NCBI GenBank assembly: GCA_041665265.1
Contig: JBAYJE010000004.1
Location: 507-64,506, forward strand
Reading direction: 5' to 3'
From: Minisyncoccota bacterium
Lineage (GTDB): Bacteria; Patescibacteriota; Minisyncoccia; UBA6257; GWB1-50-10
Length of the DNA stretch: 64,000 nt
Below are positions 59,889 through 63,515 of the stretch, in pieces (positions within the stretch are counted from its first letter, which is position 1; every line of letters begins with the position of its first letter). The position numbers and the translations under genes were made by a program. The notes under the pieces are model-generated. The model searched no databases, was not told the DNA's origin, and worked only from the letters and a program-made list of their open reading frames with translations.

Positions 59889-61010
59889 TTACTGAGTGCT
59901 CGTTCCAGAAGGAACAATTGGAGAACTCGTAGGAGTTACATCCGTTTCGTTAATGCGAGGAATCTGTGCAAGGGTGGTCGCACTCACACGAATTGCATCG
60001 TGTGCCGCACGCACTCCATCTTGAACCGCCTTAAGATCCTTCTTTAAAGCATCACGCATATTTTGAACATCGACTCGTGGTGCGTTTGGGTCCTGAATGG
60101 TCACCGTATATGTTTTTGATGCCTGAGCTATCACTAATGCACGAGCGTCAGTGATTGCTTTTTGTGCGGTCGCAATTGCAGTACGAACTGACTCAATACC
60201 AAGACCATGTACTTCAGCCTTATCAGCTCGAGAAATAATATTTAATACCACGCTGTCCATCTGATCCAAATTTTTTGTGAACTGGTTCGTCATCCTTGTG
60301 TTCGTGTCACTTAAATTTGTATCAACGCGCTTTACTGCCTCTTTTTTGTTTGTGTCTTTAATTGCTTCTATCTGCTTCTTTGCTTCTTCGCGCTTTACCT
60401 CCATCTGCTTCTTTGCTTCTTCGCGCTTTGTTTCGAGTTCCTGTTTAAAACCTTCTCGCTTTATTTCAACGGTTGCTTTAAATTCTTCACGACGTTGTTG
60501 TAATTCCCGTATGGTTCCTGTGGCACTTTCCTTAATACTTGCACGGACAGTTCCCATTTCATTGCGGAAATCTTCCTGAGTCTTCTTTATCTCCGAACGA
60601 AAGGACTCTTGGGCTTTTTTCATCGCCTCCTGATTTCCCTCGCGAAGTTGTTTTACTTCCTGCTGTTTTATCTCACGAACCTGCTTCATCTCTTCCTGTC
60701 TCACTTCACGAGCTTGCTTTGTTTCTTCTTTTTCGTTTTCGCGCACCTGCTTCACTTCTTCTCGTTTATTCTCTTGTAACCGCTTCATCTCTTCATTTCG
60801 CTGCTCTTGTTCTTTGTTTATATTTCCTGGAAAAATATTTTTAATTGCTTCTGTATTCATGCCGCGAATTGGATTTACTCCTTCGCGAGTTCCTCCCAAA
60901 GGAAGTGTTGGAGGGGTCTGCCCCGGAAGAGTTACGGAAGCCTGCGCCATCACAAGACCTGGAACGACGAGAACTGCTGCACACACATATGTAATTATTT
61001 GTTTCTTCAT
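59889..61010 (-). CDS. secreted coiled-coil repeat protein (Glu/Lys/Gln-rich)
   Basis: Signal peptide ...VVPGLVMA|QAS; repeated EEMKQVRE / REEAKKQ heptad-like units; DNA has a 33-nt-period tandem duplication at 60371..60436. Confidence 0.5.
   Translation of the reverse strand: MKKQIITYVCAAVLVVPGLVMAQASVTLPGQTPPTLPLGGTREGVNPIRGMNTEAIKNIFPGNINKEQEQRNEEMKRLQENKREEVKQVRENEKEETKQAREVRQEEMKQVREIKQQEVKQLREGNQEAMKKAQESFRSEIKKTQEDFRNEMGTVRASIKESATGTIRELQQRREEFKATVEIKREGFKQELETKREEAKKQMEVKREEAKKQIEAIKDTNKKEAVKRVDTNLSDTNTRMTNQFTKNLDQMDSVVLNIISRADKAEVHGLGIESVRTAIATAQKAITDARALVIAQASKTYTVTIQDPNAPRVDVQNMRDALKKDLKAVQDGVRAAHDAIRVSATTLAQIPRINETDVTPTSSPIVPSGTSTQ
60371..60436. repeat. tandem duplication (27 of 33 nt identical) inside the coiled-coil gene
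   Basis: ATCTGCTTCTTTGCTTCTTCGCGCTTT occurs at 60371..60397 and 60404..60430. Confidence 0.6.
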
Positions 61011-61666: not shown

Positions 61667-61740
61667 GGGTGCCTATCGGGAATTGAACCCGAATCGAGAG
61701 TTCCACAAACTCCAGTGTTAACCTTTACACCATAGGCACC
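61667..61740 (-). tRNA. tRNA-His (anticodon GTG) with encoded G-1
   Basis: G-1 + acceptor GTGCCTA/TAGGCAC, C73 opposite G-1 (His hallmark), D-arm GTGT-AAAGGTTA-ACAC, anticodon stem GGAGT/ACTCT with loop TTGTGGA, T-arm TCGGG-TTCAATT-CCCGA. Confidence 0.8.
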
Positions 61741-61786
61741 ATGCGCACCATACTAACGGAAAAATATTAAGATGACAACCAAAATT

Positions 61787-62236
61787 CTACTTCCCTTCCT
61801 CTTCAAAAAGCTTCTGTATTTCTGTATCAGAGGTTCGTTTTGAGTCCTTTCGATCCTTACTCTTCATATAGCGCAGTCGTCGCTGATGAATGGCTTCTTG
61901 CATGGCAGGACGAGGCACTTCTGTCGGAATTCTTGGTGCCTTTACTGTAATCGCTTTTGCAATAAGATCGGTCATGTGCTGTGTCGCATTGTCCATATTC
62001 TCCTCCTGAGAACGCTCTTCCTCACACGATGCCTCAAGTTCGTCTTCGCTGTTTATATATTTCTGATATTTTGCGCGCAATCCTTTTTTTTGCTCGTCAG
62101 TAAGTATCAATTTTTCTACGGGTACCCAAATCTGCACTTTTGTAGAACGTCTGCTCGCATTCATACCGCCCGGACCGCTCGCACGCGACGTCTTCATTCG
62201 TACATCATCGTTGTGAAAAAATGGTGAGATATGCAT
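61787..62236 (-). CDS. class-I release-factor-family (ArfB/YaeJ-like) protein with GGM in place of GGQ
   Basis: SRASGPGGMNASRRSTKVQI aligns with ArfB RAQGAGGQHVNKTSTAIHL; basic C-terminal tail; DNA reads GGT ATG AAT. ORF extends to 62281, start uncertain. Confidence 0.5.
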   Translation of the reverse strand: MHISPFFHNDDVRMKTSRASGPGGMNASRRSTKVQIWVPVEKLILTDEQKKGLRAKYQKYINSEDELEASCEEERSQEENMDNATQHMTDLIAKAITVKAPRIPTEVPRPAMQEAIHQRRLRYMKSKDRKDSKRTSDTEIQKLFEEEGK

Positions 62237-62279
62237 AAGTGTTGGTATTTTACCTTCCCTCATAGTATAACAAGTAGGC

Positions 62280-62951
62280 ATGGATAATCTACTCGATAGT
62301 TTAGGTCAGCTCGTCATTCACTATCCCTCCTGGGCAAATGTCATTATCGCCGCCATCATTCTCATTCAAGGAGAATTTGCGGTTCTTCTTTCTGTATTTC
62401 TTATCGTAAGTGGCAACTTAACGTGGGGCGCATATCTTTTAACTGCTCCTACTGCACTTCTTGTAGGAGAAACATTTGCCTACTTTGTAGGACGCACACT
62501 TCGCAATACTCGCTTTGGGTGGAAATTATACCGCAATAAGATTAAACCGAATAAAAAATACCAGCCTTATTTTTATTACTTAAAAATGAATCTCACAAAA
62601 CTTCTTGTTGCTTCAAAATTTCTTGTGGGTGCAAACCTTTTTATTCTTCTTCTTGTGGGGTGGTCAAAAACAAAATTCGGCATCTTTATGAAGTCTTATA
62701 TAAAAGGGCTTGCGTTTTGGTTTATTAGTATGACCACGCTCGCCTACTTCCTTATGTCGGGATTAAATTATCTCAAAACTGCAAAACTCTTCAAACAAGC
62801 AGAATATGGACTCGTGCTCGTCTTCATTCTTATCTTTGGGTTCGAATTTCTTCTAAAGAAATCCATACAGAAAGGAATACCATTTAAAACAAAGGGTGAG
62901 GACATGAGCACATTCCTCGAAGACGAGGAAGAGGGTATTACAAAAAAATAA
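62280..62951 (+). CDS. DedA/VTT-family membrane protein
   Basis: GETFAYFVGRTLRNTRFG fits the DedA motif G(D/E)xxxYxxGRxxG; ~5 TM. Confidence 0.45.
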   Translation: MDNLLDSLGQLVIHYPSWANVIIAAIILIQGEFAVLLSVFLIVSGNLTWGAYLLTAPTALLVGETFAYFVGRTLRNTRFGWKLYRNKIKPNKKYQPYFYYLKMNLTKLLVASKFLVGANLFILLLVGWSKTKFGIFMKSYIKGLAFWFISMTTLAYFLMSGLNYLKTAKLFKQAEYGLVLVFILIFGFEFLLKKSIQKGIPFKTKGEDMSTFLEDEEEGITKK

Positions 62952-63015
62952 TTTTTTTCAAATTTTGTCGTTTAATTCTCTCCCGCAAAAAATCCAGCGT
63001 TATGCCCGATTTTTC

Positions 63016-63036
63016 TTTGTGCCGCGGGAGGGAATT
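63016..63036. repeat. 21-nt direct copy of the 3' end of the intron-containing tRNA
   Basis: TTTGTGCCGCGGGAGGGAATT is identical to 63222..63242; the ~185 nt in between is unusually GC-rich. Confidence 0.6.
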
Positions 63037-63195
63037 TCCTTCGCCTCTCGGCTCGCCGTCGCTCGCCTCGGGTTAGGCACCGCCTCGCGTCCTTCGCTAC
63101 TGCTCAGGAACATTGGCCCTCACAAGGGAGACGAAGCGTCTTCCGGCATTCAATTCCCGAACATCTCGCAATAAATTGCGAGATTCCCCTCGGCA

Positions 63196-63224: not shown

Positions 63225-63225
63225 G

Positions 63226-63515
63226 TGCCGCGGGAGGGAATTGAACCCCCGACGCCAGCCTCTTCCAAGGCTGAATTTGGACTATCTCATCATCCTGTTA
63301 TAGGATGTCGGGCGCTGTGTGCGGGGTTATTGTTGGGACTCACCCACTAGTCTCTACGCCTTCTCTGCAACCTAATGCCCTGCAGAGCTTGGTTCGGGAT
63401 TGTTTTCTGTTATATCAAGAAAGTTTTCCCCGAGTTCACCCGATTTTCATCGATTCGTTACCGAATCGCGCCCCAAAGAGTTTAGGGCTGCGCTCTACCA
63501 CTGAGCTACCGCGGC
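63226..63515 (-). tRNA. tRNA (anticodon GAA, Phe, if spliced after U33) interrupted by a group I intron
   Basis: 5' exon (63484..63515) GCCGCGG-TA-GCTCAGTGGTAGAGC-G-CAGCC-CU; 3' exon (63226..63265) GAAGA-GGCTG-GCGTC-GGGGGTTCAATTCCCTC-CCGCGGC-A; acceptor and anticodon stems pair perfectly. Confidence 0.6.
63266..63483 (-). ncRNA. group I intron (~218 nt) in the tRNA anticodon loop
   Basis: P1: exon CCCU pairs with intron GGGG (U.G at splice site) across loop AAACUCUUU. Conserved P7 halves GAGACUAG and GAUAGUCC; intron ends in G before the 3' exon. Confidence 0.55.

What the first reader, a model, noticed from the sequence alone, without database searches (positions are those of the whole stretch)
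61787..62236. ArfB/release-factor-family protein with GGM instead of the universally conserved GGQ
The protein has the ArfB-like layout: a short N-terminus, then SRASGPGGMNASRRSTKV aligning to RAQGAGGQHVNKTSTA, and a basic C-terminal tail that would probe the empty mRNA channel. However the catalytic Gln of GGQ is Met; the codons GGT ATG AAT were checked on the DNA. Gln is essential for peptidyl-tRNA hydrolysis in all class I release factors, so this may be a hydrolysis-deficient ribosome-binding paralogue. Such a protein would be a stalling factor, a rescue factor with altered chemistry, or an inactive decoy. A sequencing error is unlikely, since converting the Met codon ATG to a Gln codon (CAA/CAG) requires two substitutions.
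Basis: partly seen in the sequence, partly recalled or inferred. Interest (0 to 1): 0.55.

Follow-up and report, generated by a model that had tools for sequence, protein, structure and literature searches.

The report
ArfB rescue factor with GGM motif
A small ribosome-rescue protein (ArfB) of an uncultured ultra-small bacterium has methionine in place of the supposedly universal catalytic glutamine, and its relatives have made similar replacements about ten times while the rest of the protein stays conserved.

Summary
Window 61787-62236 (minus strand) encodes a 149-aa stand-alone RF-1/GGQ-domain protein with the ArfB layout. GGC GGT ATG aligns to E. coli ArfB G26-G27-Q28.

- **Not an artefact or pseudogene.** An independent Paceibacterota MAG carries the same ATG codon. 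dN/dS between the two genes is 0.017.
- **An orthologue, not an extra paralogue.** In 13 of 13 related loci, with or without Gln, the gene sits just upstream of tRNA-His(GTG).
- **A clade-wide pattern.** In the Patescibacterial ArfB clade, 21 of 83 sequences lack Gln (M, S, H, E or R), from about 11 inferred changes. The two Gly, the loop length, the RSQxxN motif, the PRIPT linker and the basic tail stay conserved. All 55 ArfBs outside the clade, and 126 further family representatives, keep GGQ.
- **The window protein is the most derived.** It also changes two of the six ribosome contacts essential in E. coli ArfB (R118 to Ala, K129 to Ser) and has an acidic C-terminal extension.

Best reading: it still docks on ribosomes with an empty mRNA channel and places the GGM loop in the peptidyl-transferase centre. 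It probably still releases peptides through the backbone amide, less efficiently. A non-hydrolytic binding role is a serious rival. This is a new variant of a known kind.

The parts
61787..62236 (-). CDS of the ArfB-type protein (149 aa, ATG start at 62236, TAG stop at 61787-61789)
   Evidence: ORF list. Pfam RF-1 40.2 bits, NCBIfam ArfB 68.9 bits. dN/dS 0.017 against L003 over these 149 codons.
62237..62281 (-). Upstream in-frame ATGs (62281, 62263) included in the public 164-aa gene call; probably not translated
   Evidence: dN/dS is 0.49 in these 15 codons (2 synonymous, 4 non-synonymous changes) against 0.017 downstream. Homologues start at the position of M16.
62162..62170 (-). GGC GGT ATG = Gly23-Gly24-Met25, the counterpart of GGQ (E. 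coli ArfB G26-G27-Q28)
   Evidence: Sequence, codon listing, alignments.
61946..62203 (-). GGQ-type (RF-1) domain, residues ~12-97. Includes R18, P22, R30, K33, W37, E66 and the R75-S76-Q77-x-x-N80 motif, all conserved with and without Gln
   Evidence: Pfam alignment over residues 23-144 of the 164-aa form. Conservation table. AF2 secondary structure.
61910..61936 (-). Linker PRIPTEVPR (residues 101-109). R102 corresponds to the essential E. coli ArfB R105 and is invariant in 137/137 sequences
   Evidence: PMC7427801 for essentiality.
61793..61912 (-). C-terminal helix (residues 109-148): a basic tail (counterpart of the mRNA-channel probe) followed by an acidic extension, TSDTEIQKLFEEEGK. E. 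coli R118/L119/K122/K129/R132 correspond to A115/I116/R119/S126/R129
   Evidence: AF2 helix H109-148; residue mapping.
61667..61739 (-). tRNA-His(GTG), 47 nt downstream on the same strand. This partnership is conserved for the gene across the clade
   Evidence: ARAGORN and Rfam. The same arrangement is seen in L001/L003, L002, L004-L012 and L038.
61750..61778 (-). Sigma-70-like promoter match (TTGTCA-17-TAGTAT) between the stop codon and tRNA-His. It may give the tRNA its own transcript
   Evidence: This is a consensus match only: 1 site was found against 2.3 expected in shuffles, so it is not significant.

Best explanation
This is the ArfB (YaeJ/ICT1-type) ribosome-rescue factor of a Paceibacterota (Patescibacteria/CPR) bacterium. 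It is a functional gene in which the Gln of the GGQ loop has been replaced by Met.

**Proposed mechanism**
1. The basic C-terminal helix probes and occupies an empty mRNA entry channel. This step is inferred from homology.
2. The PRIPT linker and the GGQ-type domain dock in the A site of the large subunit. This is inferred from conserved rRNA-contact residues and the predicted fold.
3. The Gly-Gly-X loop enters the peptidyl-transferase centre. This is inferred from the invariant GG and fixed loop length.
4. The loop still promotes peptidyl-tRNA hydrolysis through its backbone amide, probably more slowly and with poorer selection of water. This step is inferred and untested.

In this clade the Gln side chain is only moderately constrained and has been swapped repeatedly for M, S, H, E or R. 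This suggests that a slow rescue factor is tolerated in these small, slow-growing cells.
For: **Homology and architecture**
- establish the RF-1 domain, the ArfB layout and the ArfB/ICT1-like fold.

**The gene is functional**
- dN/dS is 0.017 with dS 0.66, and the ATG codon is kept in both genomes.

**Orthology with GGQ-bearing genes**
- The gene-then-tRNA-His arrangement is present in 13/13 loci.

**Clade pattern**
- 21 of 83 clade members lack Gln, from about 11 parsimony changes on a rough NJ tree. The median column has 19 changes.
- Both Gly have 0 changes and Pro22 has 2. R18, R30, K33, W37, E66, R75, Q77, N80, R102 and R129 are as conserved in non-Gln members as in Gln members.
- Loop length is unchanged in all lineages except GGR.
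- Burroughs & Aravind (PMC6514570) found that catalytic RF families keep loop length within a narrow range while inactive families do not.
- Known non-catalytic derivatives lose the whole motif, not just the Gln: MRPS35 and Dom34 (PMC6514570), the tick ICT1-like protein (PMC3472500) and Balon (PMC10901736).
- Within sublineages the replacement residue is itself retained: His in 8 sequences, Ser in 5-7, and Met in the KPGGM group. The position therefore still matters.

**Chemistry**
- The Gln backbone amide is held to be the catalytic group (PMC6742477). The side chain packs around and selects water (PMC4691834).

**Tail**
- Across 137 sequences the six residues essential in E. coli ArfB are conserved. 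The window protein keeps four of them (PMC7427801).

**Rate**
- Non-Gln members are only about 4% more divergent from outgroup ArfBs than Gln members.
Against: - GGQ is otherwise universal. All 55 non-clade ArfBs in the tree and 126 further full-length family representatives keep Gln. About 75% of the clade still keeps it, so the side chain normally matters in vivo.
- Gln loss goes with loss of the Asn three residues later (N in 94% of Gln members; D, S or E in non-Gln members). This hints that the catalytic pocket is remodelled.
- The window protein additionally lacks two essential tail contacts (R118 -> A115, K129 -> S126) and has an acidic extension.
- From my own recollection, Gln mutants of RF1/RF2 do not complement in vivo (Mora et al. 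2003). I did not re-read that paper here.
- No biochemical data exist for any GGX ArfB.
Confidence: 0.5

Rival explanations
1. It is a hydrolysis-dead ribosome binder. The protein still recognises ribosomes with an empty mRNA channel and occupies the A site and peptidyl-transferase centre, but it no longer releases the peptide. It would then act as one of three things: a hibernation or protection factor; a Dom34-like non-catalytic rescue factor that hands the complex to splitting or Pth-type pathways; or a structural ribosome-associated protein like mS35 or ICT1/mL62.
For: - The universally conserved Gln is lost together with N28.
- Two of the six essential tail contacts are changed, and a lineage-specific C-terminal extension is shared with the GGH clade.
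- Non-Gln members evolve slightly faster.
- There are precedents for RF-type proteins turned into non-catalytic ribosome binders: MRPS35 and Dom34 (PMC6514570), the tick ICT1-like protein (PMC3472500) and Balon (PMC10901736).
- The protein gives weak Pfam and PDB similarity to mS35.
- Strong purifying selection shows that some function is retained, not which one.
Against: - Gly-Gly, Pro22 and loop length remain invariant in every GGX lineage. The precedents all lost the whole motif.
- Apart from the Gln, N28 and T32 columns, constraint is much the same in Gln and non-Gln members. About 11 independent switches to a new function without any other signature seems unparsimonious.
- The replacement residues share no chemistry.
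Confidence: 0.33
2. It is a regulatory decoy that exists alongside a canonical ArfB elsewhere in the genome. The GGM copy would compete for stalled ribosomes and tune rescue.
For: Only 64 kb of the genome is visible, so a second copy cannot be excluded. The genome-contig scan used one narrow peptide pattern.
Against: - The gene sits in the ancestral ArfB locus next to tRNA-His, as do the GGQ versions.
- The scan returned one ArfB-type locus per genome for L003-L012.
- CPR genomes are small and poor in paralogues (general knowledge).
Confidence: 0.08
3. It is a decaying gene or an assembly/sequencing artefact.
For: None beyond the unusual residue.
Against: - The ORF is intact and the same ATG codon occurs in an independent MAG.
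- dN/dS is 0.017 with dS 0.66.
- At least 25 distinct GGX relatives come from JGI, ENA, Logan and NCBI sources.
- ATG is two substitutions away from CAA or CAG.
Confidence: 0.02

Closest known systems
ArfB / YaeJ (E. coli; NCBIfam NF006718) and mitochondrial ICT1/mL62
   Same: - Stand-alone RF-1/GGQ-type domain of about 100 aa, a PRxPT linker and a basic C-terminal helix, with no codon-recognition domain.
- Best sequence, profile and fold matches.
- Four of the six residues essential in E. coli ArfB are conserved.
   Different: - GGM instead of GGQ, and Ser instead of the Asn of GGQxVN.
- R118 and K129 equivalents are replaced by Ala and Ser.
- A 12-15-residue acidic C-terminal extension is added.
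- The score is below NCBIfam's ArfB cutoff (68.9 against 100).
- Conserved linkage to tRNA-His rather than the proteobacterial pseudouridine-synthase linkage described in PMC6514570.
mS35 (MRPS35; yeast MRPS28 domain PF10213) and the tick 'extra ICT1 without GGQ'
   Same: Both are ArfB/ICT1-derived RF-1 domains that have lost the catalytic Gln yet are retained (PMC6514570, PMC3472500). The window protein gives weak Pfam (20.6 bits), PDB and Foldseek matches to mS35.
   Different: - They are eukaryotic paralogues that lost the whole GGQ motif. mS35 also gained flanking helical domains and a fixed structural place in the small subunit.
- Here only the Gln is replaced and Gly-Gly is invariant.
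- The gene is the bacterial orthologue in its ancestral locus.
Dom34/Pelota and Balon (aeRF1 superfamily without GGQ)
   Same: They are a functional analogy for the rival reading: release-factor-shaped proteins that enter the A site of stalled or idle ribosomes without hydrolysing peptidyl-tRNA (PMC6514570, PMC10901736).
   Different: They have an unrelated fold (aeRF1, not bacterial RF-1), several domains, a GTPase partner and no Gly-Gly loop. They are not homologous to the window protein.
RF1/RF2 Gln mutants studied in vitro (Shaw & Green 2007; Santos et al. 2013, as cited in PMC4691834 and PMC6742477)
   Same: They have the same kind of change, GGQ -> GGX with Gly-Gly intact. This is the experimental basis for expecting residual hydrolysis through the backbone amide.
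   Different: Those are laboratory mutants of codon-dependent factors. The proteins here are natural, selected variants of a codon-independent rescue factor.

Membership tests
ArfB / YaeJ / ICT1 family | Homologous RF-1 (peptidyl-tRNA hydrolase, GGQ-type) domain | tested here: met
   Pfam PF00472 scores 40.2 bits against a cutoff of 35. phmmer gives E 1.5e-6 to E. coli ArfB (4v95).
ArfB / YaeJ / ICT1 family | Passes NCBIfam's curated ArfB equivalog model (NF006718, cutoff 100 bits) | tested here: not met
   68.9 bits, E 3.5e-19. It is the best family hit but lies below the cutoff.
ArfB / YaeJ / ICT1 family | Stand-alone domain of about 130-150 aa without PCRF or codon-recognition domains | tested here: met
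   149 aa. No other Pfam domain reaches its cutoff. RF1, RF2 and PrfH models score only 14-20 bits.
ArfB / YaeJ / ICT1 family | Catalytic Gly-Gly-Gln motif | tested here: not met
   GGC GGT ATG gives Gly-Gly-Met, aligned to G26-G27-Q28. Both Gly are kept; the Gln is not.
ArfB / YaeJ / ICT1 family | Flexible linker plus basic C-terminal helix carrying the residues essential in E. coli ArfB (R105, R118, L119, K122, K129, R132; PMC7427801) | tested here: inconclusive
   The helix is predicted at residues 109-148. R102, I116, R119 and R129 are kept. A115 and S126 replace R118 and K129.
ArfB / YaeJ / ICT1 family | Three-dimensional similarity to ribosome-bound ArfB/ICT1 | tested here: met
   Foldseek gives 7nql_BL (ICT1) E 8e-8 and 6yss_y (ArfB) E 1.7e-7, with TM about 0.52-0.57. 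The model has pLDDT 89.8.
ArfB / YaeJ / ICT1 family | Orthology by conserved locus with GGQ-bearing members of the same phylum | tested here: met
   The gene is followed by tRNA-His(GTG) in 13/13 loci, including the GGQ, GGH, GGS and GGM versions.
ArfB / YaeJ / ICT1 family | Codon-independent peptidyl-tRNA hydrolysis on ribosomes stalled on truncated mRNA | not testable with these tools
   Needs biochemistry.
mS35 / MRPS28-type inactive RF-1 domain | Passes Pfam PF10213, lacks the whole GGQ loop and has flanking helical domains | tested here: not met
   PF10213 scores 20.6 bits against a cutoff of 22.3. The GG loop is intact and there are no flanking domains.
PrfH (RF-H) | Passes TIGR03072 and is linked to RtcB | tested here: not met
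   13.9 bits against a cutoff of 166.65. The neighbours are unrelated.

The most novel reading that the evidence does not exclude
A whole set of Patescibacterial lineages has turned the ancestral ArfB orthologue into a non-hydrolytic factor. It would still sense an empty mRNA channel and plug the A site and peptidyl-transferase centre with an intact Gly-Gly loop. This would be a bacterial-type RF-domain pseudo-enzyme acting as a hibernation, protection or Dom34-like rescue factor. It would have arisen about ten times independently and be caught at an early stage, before the loop decays.
Probability: 0.3. Interest if true: 0.75.

Novelty: new variant of a known kind. Interest (0 to 1): 0.6.

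Why it matters
GGQ is treated as a universally conserved, indispensable motif of peptide release. The comparative survey consulted here states that ArfB retains the catalytic Gln (PMC6514570).

Here a natural, strongly selected ArfB lineage replaces that Gln repeatedly with chemically unrelated residues while never touching the two glycines. This is a ready-made natural mutagenesis series: GGM, GGS, GGH, GGE and GGR alongside closely related GGQ sisters.

It bears on a long-running question: is the Gln side chain needed for hydrolysis in vivo, or only for speed and for choosing water as the nucleophile?

- If the variants are active, they show that the side chain is dispensable in living cells with low translational demand.
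- If they are inactive, they are the first bacterial-type RF-domain pseudo-enzymes in bacteria, and a possible new class of ribosome-silencing or non-catalytic rescue factor in CPR organisms.

It also matters for annotation. Such proteins are currently labelled ArfB, aminoacyl-tRNA hydrolase or 'ribosome-associated protein' without regard to the motif.

Tried and rejected
- **Sequencing error or pseudogene: rejected.** The same ATG codon occurs in an independent MAG, and dN/dS is 0.017.
- **Not an RF homologue: rejected**.
- **Isolated oddity: rejected.** At least 25 distinct GGX relatives were found.
- **The 164-aa start used in public gene calls: rejected.** The first 15 codons have dN/dS 0.49, and homologues align from M16.
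- **Neighbouring genes as functional clues: nothing found.** The flanking ORFs have no Pfam hits or are unrelated: PduO-type cobalamin adenosyltransferase, MgtC, aminotransferase, SIMPL, HtrA, ClpB. There is no prfA, prmC, smpB or tmRNA in the window.
- **First search for related loci attempt failed.** The broad alignment A1 had no conserved stretch. The tighter A2 worked, but its single pattern also pulled in RF2 genes (L013-L037), which were discarded.
- **Shaw & Green 2007 (PMC2175178) could not be read** because it is not held. Its conclusions are cited second-hand from PMC4691834 and from memory.
- **Literature searches found no report of natural GGQ variants in bacterial ArfB or in CPR bacteria**. 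The library is incomplete, so this is weak evidence of novelty.
- **The relative-rate comparison showed only about 4% acceleration in non-Gln members.** Its p-values ignore phylogenetic non-independence.
- **The NJ tree is rough.** It uses a BLOSUM distance on 127 columns, with the Gln column and the four following columns masked. The count of about 11 changes is approximate; at least 5-6 separate lineages are clear by eye.

Full report
**1. What is in the sequence**

The minus strand of window 61787-62236 carries an ORF of 149 codons. It runs from MHISPFFHNDDVRMKTSRASGPGGMNASRRSTKVQ... to ...KLFEEEGK and ends in TAG. The Met codon lies at 62162-62164.

Two further in-frame ATGs lie upstream, at 62263 and 62281, and public gene calls use the longest form of 164 aa. 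The 15 extra codons have dN/dS 0.49 against the closest relative (2 synonymous, 4 non-synonymous changes), compared with 0.017 for the 149 codons downstream. Homologues also begin at the position of M16.

**2. It is a true ArfB-type protein**

- Pfam RF-1 (PF00472) is matched above its gathering threshold: 40.2 bits against 35.
- NCBIfam's ArfB equivalog model is by far the best hit (68.9 bits, E 3.5e-19) but stays below its curated cutoff of 100. The RF1, RF2 and PrfH models score only 14-20 bits.
- Against solved structures the best matches are E. coli ArfB/YaeJ and ICT1/mL62. The alignment is ungapped, and GGM lies exactly on G26-G27-Q28.
- An AlphaFold2 model built on 106 homologues is confident (mean pLDDT 89.8). 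As expected for this loop, confidence dips to 61 in residues 21-30. The model shows a small alpha/beta domain followed by a 40-residue C-terminal helix.
- Foldseek ranks ribosome-bound ICT1 (7nql) and ArfB (6yss, 7jt1, 4v95) first. The mS35 proteins of mitoribosomes follow.

**3. Organism and locus**

The closest relative (97% aa identity) lies on contig JBAYKY010000011 of a 'Candidatus Paceibacterota' MAG, with the same gene order. All other close relatives are also from Patescibacteria/CPR MAGs.

The window has ordinary chromosomal content: FtsZ/FtsA, class II ribonucleotide reductase, YbeY, RsgA, ClpB, HtrA and glycosyltransferases.

The gene is followed 47 nt downstream, on the same strand, by tRNA-His(GTG). 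The same arrangement, with gaps of 3-94 nt (about 560 nt in one case), occurs in all 13 loci examined. This holds whatever the motif: GGM (window, L001/L003), GGS (L002), GGH (L004-L006) or GGQ (L007-L012, L038). The GGM gene is therefore the orthologue of the GGQ genes in the ancestral locus, not an added paralogue.

**4. The gene is under strong purifying selection**

Window and L003 differ by 41 synonymous and 4 non-synonymous changes over the 149 codons. This gives dS 0.66, dN 0.011 and dN/dS 0.017. The ATG codon is identical in both. This excludes a sequencing artefact and a decaying gene.

**5. The Gln is replaced again and again in this clade, and only there**

- An exhaustive HMMER search of 1.84 billion representatives gave 1722 family members at E <= 0.001. 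Among the best 150, every full-length protein from rank 30 onwards has GGQ (126 of 126). All deviants are among the closest relatives.
- With the two word-index searches the list grew to at least 25 distinct GGX proteins (loci):
  - GGM: the window lineage and a separate 'KPGGM' group.
  - GGS: two groups.
  - GGH: eight sequences.
  - GGE and GGR.
- On a neighbour-joining tree of 138 sequences, with the Gln column and the four columns after it masked, all deviants fall in one clade of 83 sequences. Of these, 21 lack Gln. The 55 sequences outside the clade all have Gln.
- Fitch parsimony needs about 11 changes at the Gln column. The median column needs 19. Gly23, Gly24, R75, N80 and R102 need 0, and R18, R30, E66 and R129 need 1. 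The 'universal' Gln is thus less constrained than about a third of the protein.
- The tree is rough. Even so, the different flanking contexts and codons show at least five or six separate origins: ATG for Met, TCA for Ser, CAT/CAC for His.
- Met and Ser each require at least two nucleotide steps from CAA or CAG. Intermediate non-Gln states were therefore tolerated too.

**6. What else changes when Gln goes**

Comparing 62 Gln members with 18 non-redundant non-Gln members of the clade, only three columns are clearly better conserved in the Gln set:

| Column | Gln members | Non-Gln members |
|---|---|---|
| Gln itself | Q 100% | H 33% (most frequent) |
| N28 (the Asn of GGQxVN) | N 94% | D 56% (most frequent; also S, E) |
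| T32 | T 98% | T 67% |

Pro22, both Gly, R30, K33, W37, L43, E66, R75-S-Q77, N80, R102-I-P-T and R129 are equally conserved in the two sets. Loop length is constant except for a one-residue deletion in the GGR lineage. Non-Gln members are only about 4% more distant from outgroup ArfBs.

Within sublineages the new residue is itself kept. His, for example, is present in all eight members of its group.

**7. The tail**

Chan et al. (PMC7427801) list R105, R118, L119, K122, K129 and R132 as the essential rRNA-contacting residues of E. coli ArfB. Across 137 aligned sequences they are conserved as follows:

| E. coli residue | Conservation in 137 sequences | Window residue |
|---|---|---|
| R105 | R in 137 | R102 |
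| R118 | R in 114 | A115 |
| L119 | L, I or V | I116 |
| K122 | K or R in 134 | R119 |
| K129 | K in 132 | S126 |
| R132 | R in 136 | R129 |

This marks the clade as genuine ArfB. The window protein keeps four of the six.

- A115 is shared with its GGQ sister P0007, and the GGH group has Gly at this position.
- S126 is unique to the window lineage.
- The window lineage and the GGH group also share a C-terminal extension beyond the basic tail, of the form TSxTE(I/M)xxLxxxxG. In the window it is acidic.

The window protein is thus the most derived member seen.

**8. How it most likely works**

*Shown*
- Homology, fold and orthology.
- Purifying selection.
- The conservation pattern.

*Inferred*
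- The tail still probes the empty mRNA channel.
- The domain still docks in the 50S A site.
- The Gly-Gly loop still enters the peptidyl-transferase centre.

Whether hydrolysis follows is the open point. I favour retained, probably attenuated hydrolysis (confidence 0.5), for four reasons:

1. The only known role of the two glycines is to allow the backbone conformation that places the loop at the ester bond (PMC5799190). They are invariant in every GGX lineage.
2. The catalytic group is held to be the backbone amide of the third residue (PMC6742477). The Gln side chain packs around the water and selects it as the nucleophile (PMC4691834).
3. Families judged inactive lose the whole motif and the constraint on loop length (PMC6514570; PMC3472500; PMC10901736). 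That does not happen here.
4. About ten independent shifts to a new function, without any other change in constraint, would be unparsimonious.

The rival is a hydrolysis-dead A-site and mRNA-channel binder acting in hibernation, protection or Dom34-like rescue (confidence 0.33). It is supported by the universality of Gln elsewhere, the coupled loss of N28, and the extra tail changes and extension in the window lineage. A decoy acting beside a canonical ArfB elsewhere in the genome (0.08) cannot be excluded from 64 kb.

**9. Comparison with what is known**

The protein works like ArfB/ICT1 and descends from it. It fails two formal membership criteria: the GGQ motif and NCBIfam's score cutoff. 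I therefore file it as a GGQ-variant derivative of the ArfB lineage rather than as a canonical ArfB.

Burroughs & Aravind state that ArfB retains the catalytic Gln. GGQ-less relatives have been described only as eukaryotic paralogues (MRPS35, a tick ICT1-like protein, plant mtRF2b) or in the unrelated aeRF1 superfamily (Dom34, Balon). I found no report of natural GGX ArfBs in bacteria, although the paper library is incomplete.

**10. Verdict**

- Novelty: a new variant of a known kind.
- Interest: 0.6. A specialist would be surprised by recurrent, selected loss of the 'invariant' Gln with intact Gly-Gly. The GGM/GGS/GGH/GGE/GGR series, with GGQ sisters available, makes the in vivo role of the Gln side chain directly testable.

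Noticed in passing
window 63225-63515 (minus strand): exon 1 63515-63484, intron 63483-63266, exon 2 63265-63225: A tRNA-Phe(GAA) gene is interrupted by a 218-nt group I intron between U33 and G34 of the anticodon loop (Rfam RF00028, 63.6 bits). ARAGORN misses the gene. After in-silico splicing, ARAGORN calls tRNA-Phe(GAA), and the sequence is identical to the uninterrupted tRNA-Phe at the syntenic site of the related MAG (L001 375-447). The intron is therefore a recent gain or loss between close relatives.
   Followed up: yes
window 62947-63169 (minus strand); repeat copy at about 63010-63036: A ~223-nt insertion relative to L001 lies just downstream of tRNA-Phe. It ends near a 21-27-nt copy of the tRNA-Phe 3' end (AATTCCCTCCCGCGGCACAAA, also at 63242). 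It looks like an att-type scar of an integrated or excised element, or a small mobile insertion.
   Followed up: partly
window 61667-61789 and loci L001-L012, L038: The ArfB-type gene is followed by tRNA-His(GTG) on the same strand in 13/13 Patescibacterial loci. In L010 and L011 only 3 nt separate the stop codon from the tRNA. If the two are co-transcribed, RNase P cleavage would leave the mRNA ending almost at its stop codon. This might couple expression of the rescue factor to 3'-end processing, in the way ArfA is regulated through its truncated mRNA; this is speculation.
   Followed up: partly
window 61790-61834 (minus strand; residues 135-149): A C-terminal extension beyond the basic ArfB tail, TSDTEIQKLFEEEGK, is shared in form (TSxTE(I/M)xxLxxxxG) with the GGH group. 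It is absent from most GGQ members. [quoted passage not shown]
   Followed up: partly
window 62237-62281 and public protein P0001: Public gene calls start the protein 15 codons too early (164 aa). This makes it overlap the divergent gene that starts at 62280. The extra codons evolve almost neutrally, with dN/dS 0.49.
   Followed up: yes
window 59889-61010 (minus strand): A 373-aa ORF has an N-terminal signal-like segment and a long Glu/Lys/Gln-rich region with reiterated 'EExKQxRE'-type units. It has no Pfam match and is conserved in position in the related MAG (343 aa). It is probably a secreted or surface coiled-coil protein.
   Followed up: no
window 62280-62951 (plus strand): The divergently transcribed 223-aa multi-pass membrane protein has no Pfam hit. 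It is the conserved upstream neighbour of the ArfB-type gene in the window, L001 and L038 (224 aa).
   Followed up: no
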